From: a virus
Reading direction: 5' to 3' (one strand)
Virus record (IMG/VR): IMGVR_UViG_3300027777_000034
Span: 8,394-72,393 of that record
Length of the DNA stretch: 64,000 bases
A program made the translations under genes and the position numbers. How positions within the stretch are numbered: the stretch's first letter is position 1; every line of letters starts with the position of its first letter. Of this stretch, positions 5,471-34,646 are shown one piece after another. Under the pieces are notes generated by a model that was not told the DNA's origin, did not search any database, and saw only the letters and a program-made list of their open reading frames with translations.

Positions 5471-5990
5471 TAAATATTAATGTTACTTAAGCGAATAGCT
5501 TTTTGTACAAAACATTTACTTTTATAGGAGGATACAATGGAATCAAAAGCACCAATCGAAATCAATGGAGAAAAATATCTGCTGTTTGCAAGCGAGAATG
5601 TTAAAAGACTTTTAAGAAAGAATAAGGTTGCAGCAGTGACCATTCTTGAAGAGTTTATTAATAAACCATTCACAAAGCTTGGAACATCTAATATTAAAAG
5701 GATTGCAGAAACAAACTTAAACATCTTAAACATTCAAGCAACAGAGTTTGAGTCTCAAGAAGAAATCAAATGTTTTATATTGCACTGTGTTGGTAATTAT
5801 ACGCAAATGCTGCCGATATATCCAAAGAAGTGGTCGGTAATGTTGGAATGTGGGCATAAAGCAATCTTTGATGAAACAGTTGACTACATCTGTAAAGATC
5901 ATGTGGTCACATGTTTTAAGTGCAATAAAAATAATTAATGCTTTTTAATCTGTAAGAAAAACGCATACATATTTCTTACAAGGAGGTTTG

Positions 5991-9792: not shown

Positions 9793-10023
9793 ATGGAAAT
9801 TGGAAGTTTGGTTTTTGCTAGAAAATTGAATGAAGCTTTTACTATTTATACCGATTCTGGTAATATAGAGGTTACCATTAAAGAAATAAATACATATTCA
9901 AATCAAGTTAGATTGCGTATTAAAGCACCAAAAAACATTAAAATCATGCGAGATAATGCAGTTGATTTAAAACCAAAAGATATATTGTTCACACCAACAA
10001 TTCCAAGATCGGAGAAAAGATGA
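9793..10023 (+). CDS. csrA: Carbon storage regulator CsrA-like RNA-binding protein
   Basis: 'LVFARKLNEAFTI...IEVTI...NQVRLRIKAPKNIKIMRD' matches the CsrA pattern. Confidence 0.8.
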   Translation: MEIGSLVFARKLNEAFTIYTDSGNIEVTIKEINTYSNQVRLRIKAPKNIKIMRDNAVDLKPKDILFTPTIPRSEKR

Positions 10024-11297
10024 ACAGAAGACATTTTATAAAACATACGGCTGGTATTTCTGCACTTTCTTTTGTGGGCAAAGTTAAAGCACAAGAAGAA
10101 ACACTTAAAAAGTCTGGAAAAAAACTTATTGTGTTGTGGATGGGCGGTGGTCCTAGTCATATGGATCTTTGGGATTTAAAACAGGGGCAAGCAAATGGTG
10201 GTGAATTTAAACAAATACTCACTTCAGCAAATGGAGTTAGCATTAGTGAAGTTCTTCCAACAATCGCTTCTCAGTTTCACAATTTAGTTGCTGTTCGATC
10301 TCTTGTGACCAACGAAGGAAGTCATGAGAGAGGAACCGTTTTAATGAATACTGGGCATCAACCAAGCGTTGTTGTGCAGTATCCATCCATTGGATCGGTA
10401 ACATCTTCTCTTTTAACATCAAAAGAACTACCACTGCCAGGATTTATTGGTATTGGAAATTCAGCACAAAGAATTGGGCCAGGATTTTTAGGAACAAACC
10501 TAGCACCATTTACAGTACAAAATGCTGGAACTCCACCAGAAAACATTAAAGCACCAAAGGAAATAGATGATGAAGAAAGACTTAGGAGAAGACAAAGACT
10601 GTTTTATACATTGGAAGACGATTTTTCGGAAAGAATTGCACCTCATATTAAAAATAGTGTGGCTAGAGAAGCTATGGGCAATCATGCTCAATCTCATTCT
10701 AATATCTATGGCAAAGCCTTTGATCTTACACTATCTCCGTTAAAAACAATATTTGAACTAAAAGACGAAAATCCTAAAACGATTGAGTCTTATGGTGGTA
10801 GAGGAAATAACTTTGGAATGGGTTGTCTTCTTGCTAGAAAGTTAATTTCTAAAGGAGTTAGCTGTGTACAAATCGATTTGGGTGGATGGGATAATCATAG
10901 CAATATCTTTAGTGCTATTAGGAATGGGAATGGGAATCGTCTTGATATGGGCATGGGATATTTGGTCAAGGACTTGGTAGATATGGGTATGTGGAAAGAT
11001 ACTGTAGTTATGTGGATGGGAGAGTTTGGTCGTACACCCAAGATTAATCAAAATGGTGGGCGTGATCATTGGGCCAGATGTTGGTCTGTGGTTCTTGGTG
11101 GTGGTACTATCCAAGGTGGACAGGTTTATGGTTCTACAACCGCTGATGGTATGGATATTAAAGACAAACCTTGCAGTATTTCAGATGTTTATGCTACAGT
11201 ATACAAAGCTTTGGGTTTAGACCCAATGTTCCAAATTAGGGATAATTTAGGGCGACCAATACCTATATCAGAAGGAAAGGCTTTAGATATATTTTGA
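10020..11297 (+). CDS. DUF1501 family protein with Tat signal peptide
   Basis: 'MNRRHFIK'; 'LWMGGGPSHMDLWD', 'CLLARKLI', 'GGWDNH', 'GEFGRTPKIN...GRDHW'. Confidence 0.9.
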   Translation: MNRRHFIKHTAGISALSFVGKVKAQEETLKKSGKKLIVLWMGGGPSHMDLWDLKQGQANGGEFKQILTSANGVSISEVLPTIASQFHNLVAVRSLVTNEGSHERGTVLMNTGHQPSVVVQYPSIGSVTSSLLTSKELPLPGFIGIGNSAQRIGPGFLGTNLAPFTVQNAGTPPENIKAPKEIDDEERLRRRQRLFYTLEDDFSERIAPHIKNSVAREAMGNHAQSHSNIYGKAFDLTLSPLKTIFELKDENPKTIESYGGRGNNFGMGCLLARKLISKGVSCVQIDLGGWDNHSNIFSAIRNGNGNRLDMGMGYLVKDLVDMGMWKDTVVMWMGEFGRTPKINQNGGRDHWARCWSVVLGGGTIQGGQVYGSTTADGMDIKDKPCSISDVYATVYKALGLDPMFQIRDNLGRPIPISEGKALDIF

Positions 11298-29087: not shown

Positions 29088-29891
29088 ATGACAATTGAAG
29101 CAAAGATAATTTCAGATTCTATATCTATTCATGATAAAAGAATAACTACTATGGTTATTAAATATCCAAGGTTTATACATTCTGAGTTTATGACACATAG
29201 AATTTTTTCCAGAAATGCCAGTAGTAGCCGAGCTATACCAGTTGATAAAATGATTGATGATATTAAAGAAGATATGGCAAAACCAAGCGTTTGGGCAAAA
29301 AATCAAAAGGGAATGTCATCTGGCGAAAGATTAGAACACAATAAAGAAGTAATGTGTAATCATGTTTGGGAAGAAGCAGCAGATTTTGTTATGAAAAAAT
29401 GTGCATTATTAAAAGAACTTGGTGTTCACAAAAGTATAGCCAATAGAATATTAGAGCCATTTTCGCACATAACAACAATTGTTACTTCTACAGAATGGGA
29501 TAACTTTTTTAAATTACGGATAAGTCCTGATGCACAACCAGAAATATGTGAATTAGCAACAAAAATGAAATTTGTATTAGATGAATCAATTCCTAAGATT
29601 AAAAACTTTGGTGATTGGCACATTCCATTTGGCGATGCTTATGTAGATGACGGTATACCAATAGAAAAAATGCTTAAAATAAGCGTGGCTCGTTGTGCTA
29701 GAGTTAGCTATCTTAATTTTGAAGGCAAAATAGACAATGAAAAAGATTATGATCTTCACGATAGACTTATGAATGAAGGTCATTGGAGTCCTTTTGAACA
29801 TTGTGCTACTCCTACATCATCTGATATTTACAGTGGAAACTTTTTAGGTTGGTTACAATATAGAAAATTTGCGGATAGAAAGAATGATTAA
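29088..29891 (+). CDS. thyX: Flavin-dependent thymidylate synthase
   Basis: 'HSEFMTHRIFSRNASSSRAIP', 'ANRILEPF', 'SVARCARVSY', 'HWSPFEH'. Confidence 0.85.
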   Translation: MTIEAKIISDSISIHDKRITTMVIKYPRFIHSEFMTHRIFSRNASSSRAIPVDKMIDDIKEDMAKPSVWAKNQKGMSSGERLEHNKEVMCNHVWEEAADFVMKKCALLKELGVHKSIANRILEPFSHITTIVTSTEWDNFFKLRISPDAQPEICELATKMKFVLDESIPKIKNFGDWHIPFGDAYVDDGIPIEKMLKISVARCARVSYLNFEGKIDNEKDYDLHDRLMNEGHWSPFEHCATPTSSDIYSGNFLGWLQYRKFADRKND

Positions 29892-30495
29892 AAAAATACA
29901 ATGGTTAAAATGGGAAGATCCACTTACACCAAATAAAGAAGACATTGACCTTGAAACAAAATCTCACAAAGACAGTTTTAAAGAATTTGATGATTCTGAA
30001 GAAAGACATGTTAGATTAGTTGTCGGTCCTTATGGTCTTTTACCATTAAATGAAAATGCTGTAACAGCAAAACTTTATAAGCTTTGGGTTGGTCATTGTA
30101 ATTTTGAAATAACTGATACGGTTAAAGAAAAAATAGAATCTGTTGCTGGAGTAGAAGTTTTACGAATATGGACAAGATATAGATTTTGGTTAGGTGTAGC
30201 AAATCTTTTTGATGACTCAGATGTTCAAAGTAATATTGAAAATCTTTTAACTGAAGAAAAAGAATTAAAGAATAAAAATATTGCACTTAAAGCTTTGATA
30301 AAAGTTTTAAAAAATAAATATAAATTTTGGGCAGTTTTTTTAGAAAAGAATGGCGAATTAAAAACTGTTGGCAGTGAAAATATTGAAGATGTAAAAAAAG
30401 AAACAGAATTGAATAAAAATTTAAACATATTAGCTTGCAGTTGGAAAAATGATTGATATATTATATTTATCCATTACTCAAAAGGAGATTTCGCT

Positions 30496-30756
30496 ATGTC
30501 TGATGTTGTAAAAAGTTTTAATCCTGATCAAGTTGCAAAGTCTGTAGCTATTATTGTGTCTACCTTAAAGTGGGTTTCCACAATTATTCCTGGCGATGCA
30601 GATGATAAAGTAGTTGCTCAAATTGTTAAAATTGCTGAAGAACCTTGGTTTGTTACCGCTTTGACTTTTTTGATCAATAAATTTGAAGGCGATATTAGTA
30701 AAATAAAAGCTGAAGATTTTATCCTCGCTGCTAGAACTGCTCAAGGCAAATATTAA
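30496..30756 (+). CDS. Small amphipathic/membrane-associated protein
   Basis: AAGGAG RBS; two hydrophobic/amphipathic helices around 'IPGDADDKVV'. Confidence 0.5.
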   Translation: MSDVVKSFNPDQVAKSVAIIVSTLKWVSTIIPGDADDKVVAQIVKIAEEPWFVTALTFLINKFEGDISKIKAEDFILAARTAQGKY

Positions 30757-33146: not shown

Positions 33147-34103
33147 ATGAATAAGATTTTAAATTTCAATAAGTCTAATAATGTTCAAATGTTATTTGAT
33201 GGCAAATGGCATGAAACAACCGATTCATTTTCTTGCACAAAAATGGATAGGACTGAAGATATTAAATTTTCTCCAAGTGGAAAAAAGCTGGCAATAGCAT
33301 CATACACATTGGGTTCAATTTTTATTTTTGATATTTATATTGATGGAAACAACATATCAGTATCAGATTATTATGAAGTAAAATGTAACGACTATAAAAG
33401 TTTTCATGGCGTAGATTGGATAAATGAAAATGTTATTATTATTAGTTCAAGATCTAGTTTTTTGTGCCCTATCGTAAAATTACCATTAAAAAATCCAAAT
33501 CGTATTATTAAATTAAAGCCTGTTAAAATAATAGAAAATTATATGACTGGATCAAGTGCGGTAAAAGTTTTAAATTTAGATGATAACTTAGTAGAATTGT
33601 TTTTTTCTAGCAGTTCTTTAAATATAGTATCTAAACACATATTAAATAAAAATACTTTTGAAATAATTGAAGAAAATATAATTTTAGAAAAACTAAGTTG
33701 CCCTGATGCAATAAATATTAGCAATGATAAAAAATGGATAGCTATTAGTAATCACAATAAAAGCAATGTTCTTATTTATAAAAATGAAAACATTAATAAA
33801 AATAGTGTTCCAAGTGCAATTTTAAGATCTGAAAATTTAATATTTCCTCATGGTTTGTGCTTTTACAACAATAGTTTATTTTTAACAGATGCTGGTAGCA
33901 ATAACATTTTTGTTTTTAAAAACATTAATGGTGATTGGTGTGGAGATATTAATGCTGAATTTAGCATAGAGCCAATGAGCATTGAAGATTACAATATTTC
34001 AAAAATAAACCCTAAAGAGGGCGGTGCTAAAGGATTAGACATTTTTGGAAACATATTGGCTATCACTAGCGGTAATTGTCCATTAACCTTTTTTAGTTTA
34101 TAA
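33147..34103 (+). CDS. Beta-propeller protein
   Basis: Repeated blades 'EDIKFSPSGKKLAIA', 'PDAINISNDKKWIAIS', 'PHGLCFY...LTDAG'. Confidence 0.65.
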   Translation: MNKILNFNKSNNVQMLFDGKWHETTDSFSCTKMDRTEDIKFSPSGKKLAIASYTLGSIFIFDIYIDGNNISVSDYYEVKCNDYKSFHGVDWINENVIIISSRSSFLCPIVKLPLKNPNRIIKLKPVKIIENYMTGSSAVKVLNLDDNLVELFFSSSSLNIVSKHILNKNTFEIIEENIILEKLSCPDAINISNDKKWIAISNHNKSNVLIYKNENINKNSVPSAILRSENLIFPHGLCFYNNSLFLTDAGSNNIFVFKNINGDWCGDINAEFSIEPMSIEDYNISKINPKEGGAKGLDIFGNILAITSGNCPLTFFSL

Positions 34104-34113
34104 AAAATAAATT

Positions 34114-34299
34114 ATGTTAAGCTTAATACTTTTTTTGTTGTTTGATCAAACTATAAGCAAAGAACAATTTGTGCTAATAGAGAAAGATTCTATTTCATTT
34201 TCTAAGCTTATAAATCAATTACCAAAATCAAAAGTGTTCTTACCAGTAATCATAAATGCAAATCAAGAAGAATGTTTTACTTGACGGAGAAGAAAATAA
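34114..34299 (+). CDS. Small secreted protein, candidate selenoprotein (C-terminal CxxU); ends at 34284 if TGA is a plain stop
   Basis: MLSLILFLLFDQ...NQEECFT-TGA-RRRK-TAA; SECIS-like ATGC-GGTC-GCAT with the loop at +19 from TGA. Confidence 0.5.
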
Positions 34300-34646
34300 T
34301 GCGGTCGCATAATAAAATAGAATTAATTTTACAAAAATCAGAAAAAATAAAACATTATGATGCTATTGGAATCATAACTATTATTATGTTGGTCGGATTT
34401 ATAGTTGATGGAATTACAATACTTAAATTTTGCACTTCTAAAAAAGGTGTTGCTTTAATAATTAAAAATGGTGGTCCTTTAGTAAGAATGTTTATAAGAA
34501 GAAATTTATACAACAAAATAATTAAAGCAAATGTTTCAGCAGAACACGCTAAGATTATATCTGATACAATAGTCGAATTGATGCAATCTTTGTCTGTTGA
34601 TGAAATAGTTTCACTTTTGGATATGGTTTATAATGAGAATAGTTAA
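34299..34646 (+). CDS. Membrane protein
   Basis: Transmembrane segment 'AIGIITIIMLVGFIVDGITIL'; GGAG RBS before ATG 34299. Confidence 0.6.
   Translation: MRSHNKIELILQKSEKIKHYDAIGIITIIMLVGFIVDGITILKFCTSKKGVALIIKNGGPLVRMFIRRNLYNKIIKANVSAEHAKIISDTIVELMQSLSVDEIVSLLDMVYNENS

What the first reader, a model, noticed from the sequence alone, without database searches (positions are those of the whole stretch)
34114..34313. Candidate phage-encoded selenoprotein: C-x-x-TGA followed by an fdhF-like SECIS
Seen: an ORF missed by the ORF track (ATG 34114) has a hydrophobic signal-like N-terminus and ends ...NQEE-C-F-T-TGA(34282-84)-R-R-R-K-TAA. That TAA overlaps the next gene's ATG (TAATG at 34297-34301), a junction style common in this window, which fits read-through of the TGA. 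Downstream is ATGC-GGTC-GCAT (34299-34310), with the GGTC loop at +19 to +22 after the TGA. Established: the E. coli fdhF SECIS has its GGUC loop at the same +19 to +22 spacing, and CxxU is a common selenoprotein redox motif. The hairpin puts CGG and TCG codons, unusual for this AT-rich sequence, at the start of the next gene, which suggests an RNA-level constraint. Inference: the phage uses host SelB/tRNA-Sec to make a small secreted CxxU protein within the protease/membrane cassette, and the SECIS covers the downstream start codon, so selenium status could influence its translation. Caveats: the stem is only 4-5 bp, and the GGAG in the read-through segment is also the next gene's RBS.
Basis: partly seen in the sequence, partly recalled or inferred. 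Interest (0 to 1): 0.85.

Follow-up and report, generated by a model that had tools for sequence, protein, structure and literature searches.

The report
Conserved UGA plus SECIS-like start-site hairpin
A tiny gene of an uncultured lake phage always ends Cys-x-x-UGA just ahead of a small co-varying RNA hairpin that closely resembles the bacterial selenocysteine signal, so it may encode a selenium-containing tail, but an ordinary stop beside a translation-control hairpin is nearly as likely.

Summary
ORF 34114-34284 ends C-F-T-TGA. Four more codons and a TAA follow, overlapping ATG 34299. That ATG opens the hairpin ATGC-GGTC-GCAT, whose loop lies at +19 to +22.

Inside one window this pattern is near chance. 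The comparative evidence is not:
- The small ORF is a real gene.
- Its stop is TGA in the window and in all 35 related places with an intact copy, while the stops of neighbouring genes change.
- The hairpin has three versions (ATGCG-GT-CGCAT, ATGTG-GT-CACAT, ATGCA-GT-TGCAT). The pairs change together and the apical GU never changes.
- In deep lineages the stem is 5-6 bp and starts 11-13 nt after the UGA (11 in three of five), as in the E. coli minimal SECIS.
- One auxiliary gene points to Planctomycetota as host. Five such genomes have SelB, SelD and tRNA-Sec. Their SECIS apexes are of the GGU type, and one has the same GC-GGUC-GC core.

Against selenocysteine:
- No homolog has Cys at the UGA position; Gly or Tyr occur there.
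- The read-through tail is only 1-4 variable residues.
- The window's stem is 4 bp (-3 kcal/mol).
- Host SECIS elements are mostly longer and lie farther from the UGA.

Verdict: a SelB-type recoding element at about 0.42; an ordinary stop plus a start-site hairpin at about 0.38. This scan met the same family before on other DNA, and two follow-ups favoured the ordinary stop.

The parts
34114..34284 (+). Small ORF of 56 codons plus TGA. It has a hydrophobic N-terminus, an invariant F-x-L-I core and an invariant Cys three codons before the stop.
   Evidence: The ORF is conserved with in-frame indels in related loci. Variable sites by codon position are 14/8/23 over 37 codons in 9 sequences. Gene callers predict it in 36 protein clusters.
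34273..34275 (+). TGT, the only invariant Cys of the small protein (C54).
   Evidence: It is invariant in alignments A5 (21 sequences) and A7 (16 sequences).
34282..34284 (+). TGA: either the stop of the small ORF or a candidate Sec codon.
   Evidence: TGA is present in the window and in 35 of 35 related places with an intact small ORF. The stops of the neighbouring genes vary in the same loci.
34285..34299 (+). Possible read-through tail CGG AGA AGA AAA followed by TAA. The TAA shares one base with the next ATG.
   Evidence: In relatives the tail is 1-4 codons: RRRK, WRKK, RRR, R or K.
34286..34289 (+). GGAG, the Shine-Dalgarno sequence of the downstream gene, 9 nt before ATG 34299.
   Evidence: It is invariant in the main clade.
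34299..34310 (+). Hairpin ATGC-GGTC-GCAT, which can also be read as 5-nt inverted repeats around an apical GT. It contains the start codon of the next gene.
   Evidence: Folding gives 4 bp at -3.0 kcal/mol here, and 5-6 bp at -4.9 to -7.3 kcal/mol in deeper lineages. Two base pairs show compensatory changes and the apical GT is invariant. All 65 protein clusters start MRSH, MWSH or MQLH, which are hairpin-compatible codon pairs.
34299..34646 (+). Downstream gene: a 115-aa protein with one predicted hydrophobic (transmembrane-like) segment. It belongs to no known family.
   Evidence: The family is closed: 65 clusters, all with E<1e-31. Pfam gives no match and the ESM Atlas gives nothing usable.

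Best explanation
The junction is a compact recoding and control element of the bacterial SelB/SECIS type.

Proposed mechanism:
1. The conserved UGA that closes the small gene sits 11-14 nt upstream of a small hairpin with an exposed apical GU. That hairpin mimics the upper stem-loop of a bacterial SECIS.
2. In a Sec-competent host, probably a freshwater planctomycete, SelB carrying Sec-tRNA binds the hairpin.
3. A fraction of ribosomes then decode the UGA as selenocysteine. The micro-protein gains a C-terminal tail C-x-x-U followed by 1-4 mostly basic residues.
4. These ribosomes terminate 1-4 codons later, at or near the next gene's AUG. In doing so they open the hairpin that holds that AUG. 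Translation of the downstream membrane protein is thereby tied to the host's Sec-decoding capacity.

Shown: conservation of the UGA, the spacing, the hairpin, the apical GU and the Cys; co-variation of the stem; the Sec machinery and GGU-apex SECIS elements in the putative host group.

Inferred: SelB binding, Sec insertion, the coupling to the downstream gene, and the identity of the host.
For: 1. UGA conservation. The window and all 35 related places with an intact small ORF end in TGA. These comprise 20 distinct sequence versions and about six deep lineages. In the same loci the downstream gene's stop is TAA, TAG or TGA, and the upstream gene's stop is TAA or TGA. TGA is a minority stop here: 20 of 85 ORFs in this contig and 43 of 115 in a deep-lineage phage.

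2. Spacing. The TGA-to-ATG spacer is 14 nt in most loci, 13 nt in L038-40, L045 and L046, and 12 nt in L036. Where the stem is 5-6 bp, its base lies 11 nt after the UGA in L036, L038 and L045, 12 nt in L014 and 13 nt in L041. Review PMC8659212 gives 11 nt for the E. coli minimal 17-nt SECIS, with U17, G23 and U24 as the conserved bases. In the window G23 and U24 coincide exactly.

3. The hairpin is selected at the RNA level.
- There are three versions, with compensatory changes in two pairs and an invariant GU apex.
- In one search, 90.5% of cells are paired, against 8-56% when the partners are slid. Two pairs change on both sides, and 1 of 500 shuffles reaches the observed covariation score.
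- The encoded residues change radically (R/W/Q and S/L), and rare codons are used.
- All 65 clusters of the downstream protein start MRSH (35), MQLH (26) or MWSH (4).

4. Host.
- The phage DUF1501 gene is 53-73% identical to genes of Planctomycetota MAGs in 46 of 52 loci returned, and 28-32% in the other six. By their titles, 51 of the 52 records name planctomycete lineages.
- Of five such genomes, 5/5 have SelB over the curated cut-off.
- 5/5 have SelD, four of them with an in-frame TGA.
- 5/5 have tRNA-Sec over the cut-off.

5. Host SECIS apexes are of the GGU type.
- selD has GCA-GGU(U/C)(C/U)-UGC.
- A formate dehydrogenase has a GGUCU loop with G23/U24, the same distance as in the phage.
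- Sec-containing peroxiredoxin-like genes have GGUC-type loops, and one has the same GC-GGUC-GC core as the phage hairpin.

6. The small ORF is a translated gene with an invariant Cys next to the UGA. Deep lineages carry a GGTG-type Shine-Dalgarno sequence before it.

7. TGA is otherwise an ordinary stop in this phage, so global recoding does not explain the pattern.
Against: - No homolog has Cys at the UGA position: 0 of 36 clusters and 0 of 9 representative clusters. The sense residues seen there are Tyr (P0006, on a 578-nt contig) and, by alignment, Gly in the C-x-x-G-F-R-TGA lineages (L041, L043, P0093, P0097).
- The frame after the UGA is only 1-4 codons long. It varies in length and sequence and is also the next gene's Shine-Dalgarno region. 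Coding past the UGA therefore cannot be shown.
- In the window's clade the stem is only 4 bp (-3.0 kcal/mol). There is no bulged U17 (an A is there) and no lower stem.
- Rfam gives no SECIS match at E<=10.
- Most host SECIS elements examined are longer (5-15 bp). They usually have 5- or 6-nt loops, and their apical G lies at 29-39 rather than 21-23.
- The host assignment rests on one auxiliary gene. The phage has about 30% GC against 42-58% in the host loci. No spacer-like match was found in 267 genomes of that order.
- In the deep lineages the neighbouring genes also mostly end in TGA (7 of 9 control stops). This weakens the stop-conservation argument there.
- L020 carries a deletion that breaks the small ORF but leaves the junction intact.
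- None of 4 related phage genomes encodes a tRNA-Sec over the cut-off. This is neutral if the host supplies it.
- Two earlier follow-ups of this scan on the same family favoured an ordinary stop.
Confidence: 0.42

Rival explanations
1. The UGA is an ordinary stop. The hairpin is a translation-control element of the downstream gene. It holds that gene's AUG and, in deep lineages, part of the spacer. Translation of the 115-aa membrane protein would then be set by upstream translation, by an unknown RNA-binding protein, or by hairpin stability. On this view the likeness to a SECIS is coincidental.
For: - The hairpin always contains the (likely) start codon, with the Shine-Dalgarno sequence just upstream.
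- It is universal in the downstream protein family, 65 of 65 clusters. It therefore travels with that gene.
- No Cys homolog of the UGA position exists.
- The tail is 1-4 variable codons.
- A natural variant with a broken small ORF keeps the junction (L020).
- The in-window pattern is near chance expectation.
- Two earlier follow-ups of the same family on other DNA reached this reading.
Against: - It does not predict an invariant TGA (window plus 35 of 35 places) while neighbouring stops turn over.
- It does not predict the constant 11-14 nt distance from the stop.
- It does not predict the invariant apical GU across three stem versions.
- It does not predict the match to the GGU-type SECIS apexes of a Sec-using putative host group.
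- In L041 and L043 an upstream ATG with its own Shine-Dalgarno sequence may be the start. The hairpin would then lie inside the ORF.
Confidence: 0.38
2. The element depends on the UGA or on SelB, but makes no functional selenoprotein. One possibility is that SelB binds the hairpin purely as a translational repressor of the downstream gene, as at the E. coli selAB leader. Another is that leaky UGA read-through by an ordinary tRNA carries ribosomes to the second stop at the AUG, which opens the hairpin and allows re-initiation.
For: - In E. coli a SECIS-like hairpin 3 nt from the selA Shine-Dalgarno sequence is bound by SelB with GTP and Sec-tRNA and represses selAB (passage read in PMC13449736).
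- The second in-frame stop lies at or within 7 nt of the AUG in every lineage. It is TAATG in the main clade and in L041.
- The tail has no conserved length.
- Gly or Tyr at the UGA position in some lineages argues against a catalytic Sec.
Against: - A SelB repressor site needs no upstream UGA at SECIS distance, yet the UGA and its spacing are conserved.
- If SelB with Sec-tRNA sits at that distance from a UGA, Sec insertion is the expected outcome.
- The invariant Cys beside the UGA is unexplained.
- Near-cognate read-through has no known need for a GU-apex hairpin in bacteria. This last point is recalled and was not tested.
Confidence: 0.13
3. The motif is a DNA-level palindrome, such as a binding site for a dimeric protein or a nuclease or methylase target. 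Alternatively it is a chance feature with no function.
For: - The motif is a 5+2+5 inverted repeat.
- A copy identical to the L014/L015 version lies at 5901-5912 in the window, inside another gene.
Against: - Both compensatory changes can pass through G-U wobble intermediates on the sense strand, as expected for RNA. This is an inference.
- The central GT is not itself palindromic, yet it is invariant.
- With up to 2 mismatches the motif has 4 matches in the window against 0.89 expected, and two of the four are the site itself on both strands.
- Conservation across 65 of 65 clusters excludes chance.
Confidence: 0.05

Closest known systems
E. coli fdhF-type bacterial SECIS read by SelB
   Same: A UGA is followed by a hairpin with a GGUC apex. 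G23 and U24 (U of UGA = 1) fall at exactly the same positions in the window. In three deep lineages the hairpin base lies 11 nt after the UGA, as for the 17-nt minimal SECIS (review PMC8659212, passages read).
   Different: The stem is only 4-6 bp. There is no bulged U17 and no lower stem. The hairpin lies outside the small ORF and spans the next gene's start codon. The candidate Sec would be 1-4 residues from the C-terminus. No Cys homolog is known.
SECIS elements of Sec-using Planctomycetota MAGs (selD, a formate dehydrogenase and peroxiredoxin-like genes) found here
   Same: The apex is of the GGU type. One has the same GC-GGUC-GC core (L117), and one has the same UGA-to-apex distance (formate dehydrogenase of G008).
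   Different: The host elements are longer and more stable. They usually have 5- or 6-nt loops (GGUCU, GGUUC, GGUCUU), and most place the apical G at 29-39. All lie inside long ORFs, with U in U-x-x-C or G-U-A-G-K motifs.
E. coli selAB leader SECIS-like element (translational repression by SelB)
   Same: A SECIS-like hairpin lies next to a Shine-Dalgarno sequence and start site, so SelB binding could control initiation (PMC13449736, passage read).
   Different: The selAB element has no associated UGA. Here the hairpin contains the AUG itself and a conserved UGA lies upstream at SECIS distance.
Phage translational operators such as the MS2 coat-protein/replicase start hairpin
   Same: A small hairpin contains the start codon of a downstream gene in a phage.
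   Different: No binding protein is known here. The loop and the upstream UGA have no counterpart in those operators.
Other phage selenoprotein candidates of this scan (e1-5362015, e1-5998498, e1-5778751; AI notes, not checked here)
   Same: Each is a small phage gene with a conserved UGA followed by a co-varying hairpin of the bacterial SECIS type.
   Different: Those reports state that the UGA aligns with Cys in relatives and that the ORF continues past it. Neither holds here.

Membership tests
Bacterial selenoprotein gene with SelB-type SECIS | The UGA is conserved at the same codon in homologs. | tested here: met
   TGA is present in the window and in 35 of 35 related places with an intact small ORF. 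No differences are listed for 34259-34312 in variant contigs of three further runs (34 further difference rows were not shown). The stops of neighbouring genes vary.
Bacterial selenoprotein gene with SelB-type SECIS | Homologs carry Cys at the position aligned with Sec. | tested here: not met
   0 of 36 clusters and 0 of 9 representative clusters among 1.84 billion proteins. Tyr occurs there in P0006. By alignment, Gly occurs there in L041, L043, P0093 and P0097.
Bacterial selenoprotein gene with SelB-type SECIS | The reading frame and protein conservation continue past the UGA. | tested here: inconclusive
   Only 1-4 codons lie before the next stop. Their sequence is also constrained by the Shine-Dalgarno sequence.
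Bacterial selenoprotein gene with SelB-type SECIS | A hairpin lies at SECIS distance with G (and U) at the apex. | tested here: met
   The apical G is at position 21-23. The stem base is 11-14 nt from the UGA. The GU apex is invariant. The E. coli reference values come from PMC8659212.
Bacterial selenoprotein gene with SelB-type SECIS | The hairpin has the size and stability typical of a SECIS, including a bulged U in the E. coli type. | tested here: inconclusive
   The window's clade has 4 bp at -3.0 kcal/mol. Deep lineages have 5-6 bp at -4.9 to -7.3 kcal/mol. Position 17 is A in the window (read), and no U bulge appears in the folds of the other lineages. bSECISearch was not available. Rfam gives no match.
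Bacterial selenoprotein gene with SelB-type SECIS | The stem shows co-variation. | tested here: met
   Two pairs have compensatory double changes, and 1 of 500 shuffles reaches the observed score. All 65 protein clusters have hairpin-compatible N-termini.
Bacterial selenoprotein gene with SelB-type SECIS | The host has selA/selB/selC/selD. | tested here: inconclusive
   SelB, SelD and tRNA-Sec are present in 5 of 5 Planctomycetota MAGs that carry the closest DUF1501 homologs. selA was not searched. The host identity is inferred from one gene only, and no spacer match was found.
Bacterial selenoprotein gene with SelB-type SECIS | Selenium is incorporated in a SelB-dependent way. | not testable with these tools
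   This needs 75Se labelling, mass spectrometry or a reporter assay.
Start-codon hairpin / translational operator of the downstream gene | A hairpin holds the start codon and is conserved together with the downstream gene. | tested here: met
   The ATG lies in the 5' arm in all 46 rows, and 65 of 65 clusters fit. In L041 and L043 an upstream ATG may be the true start.
Start-codon hairpin / translational operator of the downstream gene | The hairpin has an effect on initiation, or a cognate binding protein is known. | not testable with these tools
   No binding protein is known. Reporter assays would be needed.
Global TGA reassignment (genetic codes 4 or 25, or phage late-gene recoding) | In-frame TGAs occur inside many genes, and ORFs merge when TGA is read as sense. 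| tested here: not met
   The ORF count stays at 85. Coverage rises only from 0.794 to 0.817. Nine of the 20 TGA stops are ATGA overlaps with the next gene. The window has no tRNA.

The most novel reading that the evidence does not exclude
A bacteriophage encodes a micro-selenoprotein whose selenocysteine sits in a C-terminal C-x-x-U tail. Its SECIS is reduced to a 4-6 bp GU-apex hairpin that lies outside the ORF and doubles as the start-site hairpin of the next gene. Host SelB and selenium status would then set both the form of the small protein and the translation of the downstream membrane protein.
Probability: 0.4. Interest if true: 0.85.

Novelty: new variant of a known kind. Interest (0 to 1): 0.58.

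Why it matters
None of the 27 papers listed from three full-text searches has a title or abstract start that describes a selenoprotein encoded by a virus of bacteria; the third search sought SECIS base positions and listed one review. If this element is read by SelB, three things would follow.
- A SECIS could be cut down to a tiny apical hairpin.
- A SECIS could lie outside its ORF, in a neighbouring gene's start region.
- A phage could couple expression of a gene to the host's selenium-decoding capacity.

It would also add a C-terminal Sec tail, an arrangement known from eukaryotic proteins, to the bacterial-type system.

If the UGA is only an ordinary stop, the finding is still useful. It is a clean, co-varying start-site hairpin whose sequence dictates the first four residues (M-x-x-H) of a phage protein family. 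It is also a cautionary look-alike for SECIS searches.

Tried and rejected
- Global TGA recoding is rejected.
- A tRNA-Sec or suppressor tRNA carried by the phage: none in the window. None is over the cut-off in 4 related phage genomes. The best hits there are tRNA-Leu.
- Rfam scan of 33900-34600 at E<=10: only a chance GibS hit.
- Phage database by DNA: no match. The DnaE protein matches no cultured phage above 34% identity, so this gives no host clue.
- Pfam, PHROGs, the ESM Atlas and AlphaFold gave no function for the small protein or the 115-aa protein (pLDDT 56, so no fold search was made). PHROGs was run on ten other window proteins only.
- A second copy of the hairpin motif at 5901 lies inside another gene in another frame. 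I take it as chance.
- A frameshift that fuses the small ORF to the next gene: I saw no slippery heptamer, so I did not pursue it.
- A -35/-10 promoter reading of TTGACG: the spacing is wrong and the motif is not conserved in relatives (by eye).
- Long-range pairing of UGA(C) with downstream UCA, or with the hairpin's 3' arm, gives 3-4 bp and is not conserved. I rejected it by eye.
- Spacer-like matches of 20 kb of the window in 267 genomes of the putative host order: none. There was one 73-nt hit at 74% identity.
- Searches for DNA of further lineages (P0093, P0094) in viral contigs found nothing. The MQLH clade is absent from viral contigs. The downstream gene family is absent from genome contigs.
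- Laying contigs of four runs showed no difference between 34259 and 34312. One RNA-library contig spans 34130-34343. Contigs drop rare variants and RNA libraries can hold DNA, so I do not count this as evidence of transcription or of absence of variants.
- Supplementary files of papers were not consulted.
Full report
WHAT IS THERE

The window is part of a 72,393-nt phage contig. It has about 30% GC and nearly all its genes are on the + strand.
- ORF 34114-34284 encodes 56 residues ending N-Q-E-E-C-F-T, followed by TGA at 34282-34284.
- CGG AGA AGA AAA TAA follows. The TAA shares its last A with ATG 34299.
- That ATG opens a 115-aa gene running to 34646.
- GGAG at 34286-34289 is that gene's Shine-Dalgarno sequence.
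- ATGC-GGTC-GCAT at 34299-34310 can form a 4-bp hairpin, with GGTC at +19 to +22 after the TGA.

CGG and TCG, the second and third codons of the downstream gene, are very rare here. CGG is 7 of 614 Arg codons and TCG is 47 of 1436 Ser codons.

IS THE PATTERN MORE THAN CHANCE?

Inside one window it is not. A TGA in any frame followed at exactly +19 by a 4-bp stem closing an N-G-T-N loop is expected 0.9 times per window, and two were seen. The case therefore rests on comparison with relatives.

RELATED SEQUENCES

I fetched 45 related loci holding the junction.
- They represent 36 distinct places on 35 contigs.
- Nine contigs were fetched twice.
- One 222-kb contig carries two copies of the cassette.

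Protein searches gave the following.
- 36 clusters of the small protein.
- 65 clusters of the downstream protein.
- Only 9 representative clusters of the small protein in a profile search of 1.84 billion proteins.

Both families are confined to this group of uncultured freshwater phages.

THE SMALL ORF IS A REAL GENE
- It is conserved with in-frame indels.
- Variable sites fall 14/8/23 on codon positions 1/2/3.
- Deep lineages have GGTG-type Shine-Dalgarno sequences before it.
- The invariant residues are M1, K16, F19, L21, I22 and the single Cys three codons before the stop.

THE UGA
- Every copy with an intact small ORF ends in TGA: the window plus 35 of 35 places, in 20 distinct sequence versions.
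- In the same loci the downstream gene's stop is TAA, TAG or TGA. It differs even between the close pair L041 and L043. The upstream gene's stop is TAA or TGA.
- TGA is the stop of 20 of 85 ORFs in this contig and of 43 of 115 in a deep-lineage phage.
- A caveat applies. In the deep lineages 7 of 9 control stops are also TGA. The argument is therefore strongest for the main clade and L014.
- TGA is otherwise an ordinary stop. Reading it as sense does not merge ORFs, and 9 of the 20 TGA stops are ATGA overlaps.

THE HAIRPIN

Three versions exist.
- ATGCG-GT-CGCAT in most loci.
- ATGTG-GT-CACAT in L014 and L015.
- ATGCA-GT-TGCAT in L041, L043 and L045.

Two pairs change on both sides while the apical GT never changes.
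- In one search, 90.5% of cells pair, against 8-56% when the partners are slid.
- 1 of 500 shuffles reaches the observed covariation score.

The encoded residues change radically: R-S, W-S and Q-L. All 65 protein clusters begin MRSH (35), MQLH (26) or MWSH (4), which are exactly the codon pairs compatible with the hairpin. The His is simply the complement of the ATG. The constraint is therefore on RNA, not on protein.

The stem is weakest in the window's clade, at 4 bp and -3.0 kcal/mol. In deeper lineages the flanking TC and GA extend it to 5-6 bp, at -4.9 to -7.3 kcal/mol.

GEOMETRY
- The spacer from TGA to ATG is 14 nt in most loci, 13 nt in L038-40, L045 and L046, and 12 nt in L036.
- The base of the extended stems lies 11 nt after the UGA in L036, L038 and L045, 12 nt in L014 and 13 nt in L041.
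- Review PMC8659212 (passages read) describes the E. coli minimal SECIS as a 17-nt upper stem-loop 11 nt from the UGA, in which U17, G23 and U24 are the conserved bases.
- In the window, G23 and U24 fall exactly on the apical G and T.
- Position 17 is an A, not a bulged U.

HOST AND ITS SECIS ELEMENTS

- That gene is 53-73% identical to genes of Planctomycetota MAGs in 46 of the 52 loci returned, and 28-32% in the other six. By their titles, 51 of the 52 records name planctomycete lineages, many of them Gemmataceae from lakes.
- In five such genomes SelB is over the curated cut-off in 5/5.
- SelD is present in 5/5, four of them with an in-frame TGA.
- tRNA-Sec is over the cut-off in 5/5.
- selA was not searched.

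Their Sec codons are followed by hairpins with GGU-type apexes.
- selD has GCA-GGU(U/C)(C/U)-UGC, with the G at 37.
- A formate dehydrogenase has a GGUCU loop with G23/U24, the same distance as in the phage.
- Sec-containing peroxiredoxin-like genes were also examined. One has a 7-bp stem with the same GC-GGUC-GC core as the phage hairpin.
- Host elements are, however, mostly longer. They usually have 5- or 6-nt loops, and their apex lies at 29-39.

The host assignment rests on one gene.
- The phage is much more AT-rich than those genomes.
- No spacer-like match was found in 267 genomes of that order.

WHAT FAILS

The hallmark of selenoprotein families is absent: no homolog has Cys aligned with the UGA.
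- One singleton on a 578-nt contig reads Tyr there and continues to the second stop (P0006).
- Two lineages end C-x-x-G-F-R-TGA (L041 and L043, P0093, P0097). Either a Gly replaces the UGA position, or nine bases were inserted before it. Either way C-x-x-U is not universal. In L041 and L043 the TGA still lies 14 nt before the hairpin.

Other weak points:
- The read-through frame is only 1-4 codons (RRRK, WRKK, RRR, R, K) and coincides with the Shine-Dalgarno region. Coding past the UGA cannot be shown.
- L020 has a deletion that breaks the small ORF but keeps the junction.
- Rfam finds nothing.
- 'Secreted' is not supported. The hydrophobic start is too short for a standard signal peptide, and the structure model is poor.

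READING

The constant UGA, the constant distance, the invariant GU apex on a co-varying stem, and the match to the E. coli minimal SECIS and to SECIS apexes of a Sec-using putative host are together hard to ascribe to an ordinary stop next to an unrelated hairpin.

The failed Cys test, the tiny tail and the weak stem are equally hard to square with a classical selenoprotein.

I therefore rank the explanations as follows.
- A SelB-type recoding and control element first, at about 0.42. Some ribosomes would insert Sec and run on to the second stop at the AUG, opening the hairpin.
- An ordinary stop plus a start-site hairpin close behind, at about 0.38.
- SelB binding or plain read-through without a functional selenoprotein, at about 0.13. 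For this reading the E. coli selAB leader is the precedent (PMC13449736, passage read).
- A DNA-level palindrome or chance, at about 0.05.

PRIOR WORK

None of the 27 papers listed from three full-text searches has a title or abstract start that describes a phage-encoded selenoprotein; the third search sought SECIS base positions and listed one review. I saw listings and abstract starts only. I read passages in PMC8659212 and PMC13449736.

This scan has met the same family on other DNA. Two follow-ups (e1-5990682, e1-6154114) judged it more likely an ordinary stop beside a control hairpin. I could see only their summaries, so I do not know whether they used the kinds of evidence that move my odds upward:
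- the putative host's Sec machinery;
- the host's SECIS apexes;
- the 11-nt geometry of the deep lineages;
- the AGUU version of the loop.

LIMITS

The DNA of four further lineages (P0006, P0092-P0094) could not be examined. Supplementary files of papers were not consulted.

Noticed in passing
window 5901-5912: ATGTGGTCACAT, identical to the L014/L015 version of the hairpin, lies inside ORF 5537-5938 in another frame. It encodes D-H-V-V-T-C in a Cys-rich C-terminus. This is probably chance.
   Followed up: partly
window 33147-34103: The 318-aa gene, which gives only weak beta-propeller-like Pfam hints, sits between the 207-aa gene and the small ORF only in the window and L001. In all other main-clade loci the 207-aa homolog directly precedes the small ORF. 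The gene therefore looks like an insertion.
   Followed up: partly
L045 and L046 (one 222,482-nt metagenome contig): One large phage contig carries two copies of the cassette (small ORF, TGA, hairpin, 120-aa gene). One copy has the GGTC loop and an MRSH start. The other has the AGTT loop and an MQLH start.
   Followed up: partly
L020:1200-1515: A 7.5-kb contig has a deletion that shifts the N-terminal half of the small ORF into the frame of the downstream gene, with no stop between them. This is either a natural fusion variant or an assembly error.
   Followed up: no
window 10020-11294: The phage DUF1501 gene is 53-73% identical to genes of freshwater Planctomycetota/Gemmataceae MAGs in 46 of 52 loci returned. 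This points to a planctomycete host for an AT-rich phage of about 30% GC.
   Followed up: partly
L104-L108, L114-L123 (Planctomycetota MAGs): These lake planctomycetes carry several selenoprotein genes. They include SelD with U in C-A-G-U-A-G-K, a formate dehydrogenase, and at least four kinds of peroxiredoxin- or thioredoxin-like genes with U-x-x-C motifs. Most of their SECIS loops are of the GGU type.
   Followed up: partly
window 29869-30756: ORF 29869-30456 ends in TGA, and the same frame stays open for 99 more codons. This is probably a separate same-frame gene rather than read-through. I did not examine it.
   Followed up: no
window 34130-34343: A 222-nt contig from a riverine metatranscriptome library covers the small ORF, the TGA and the hairpin of a relative, with 11 differences. 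DNA carry-over cannot be excluded.
   Followed up: no
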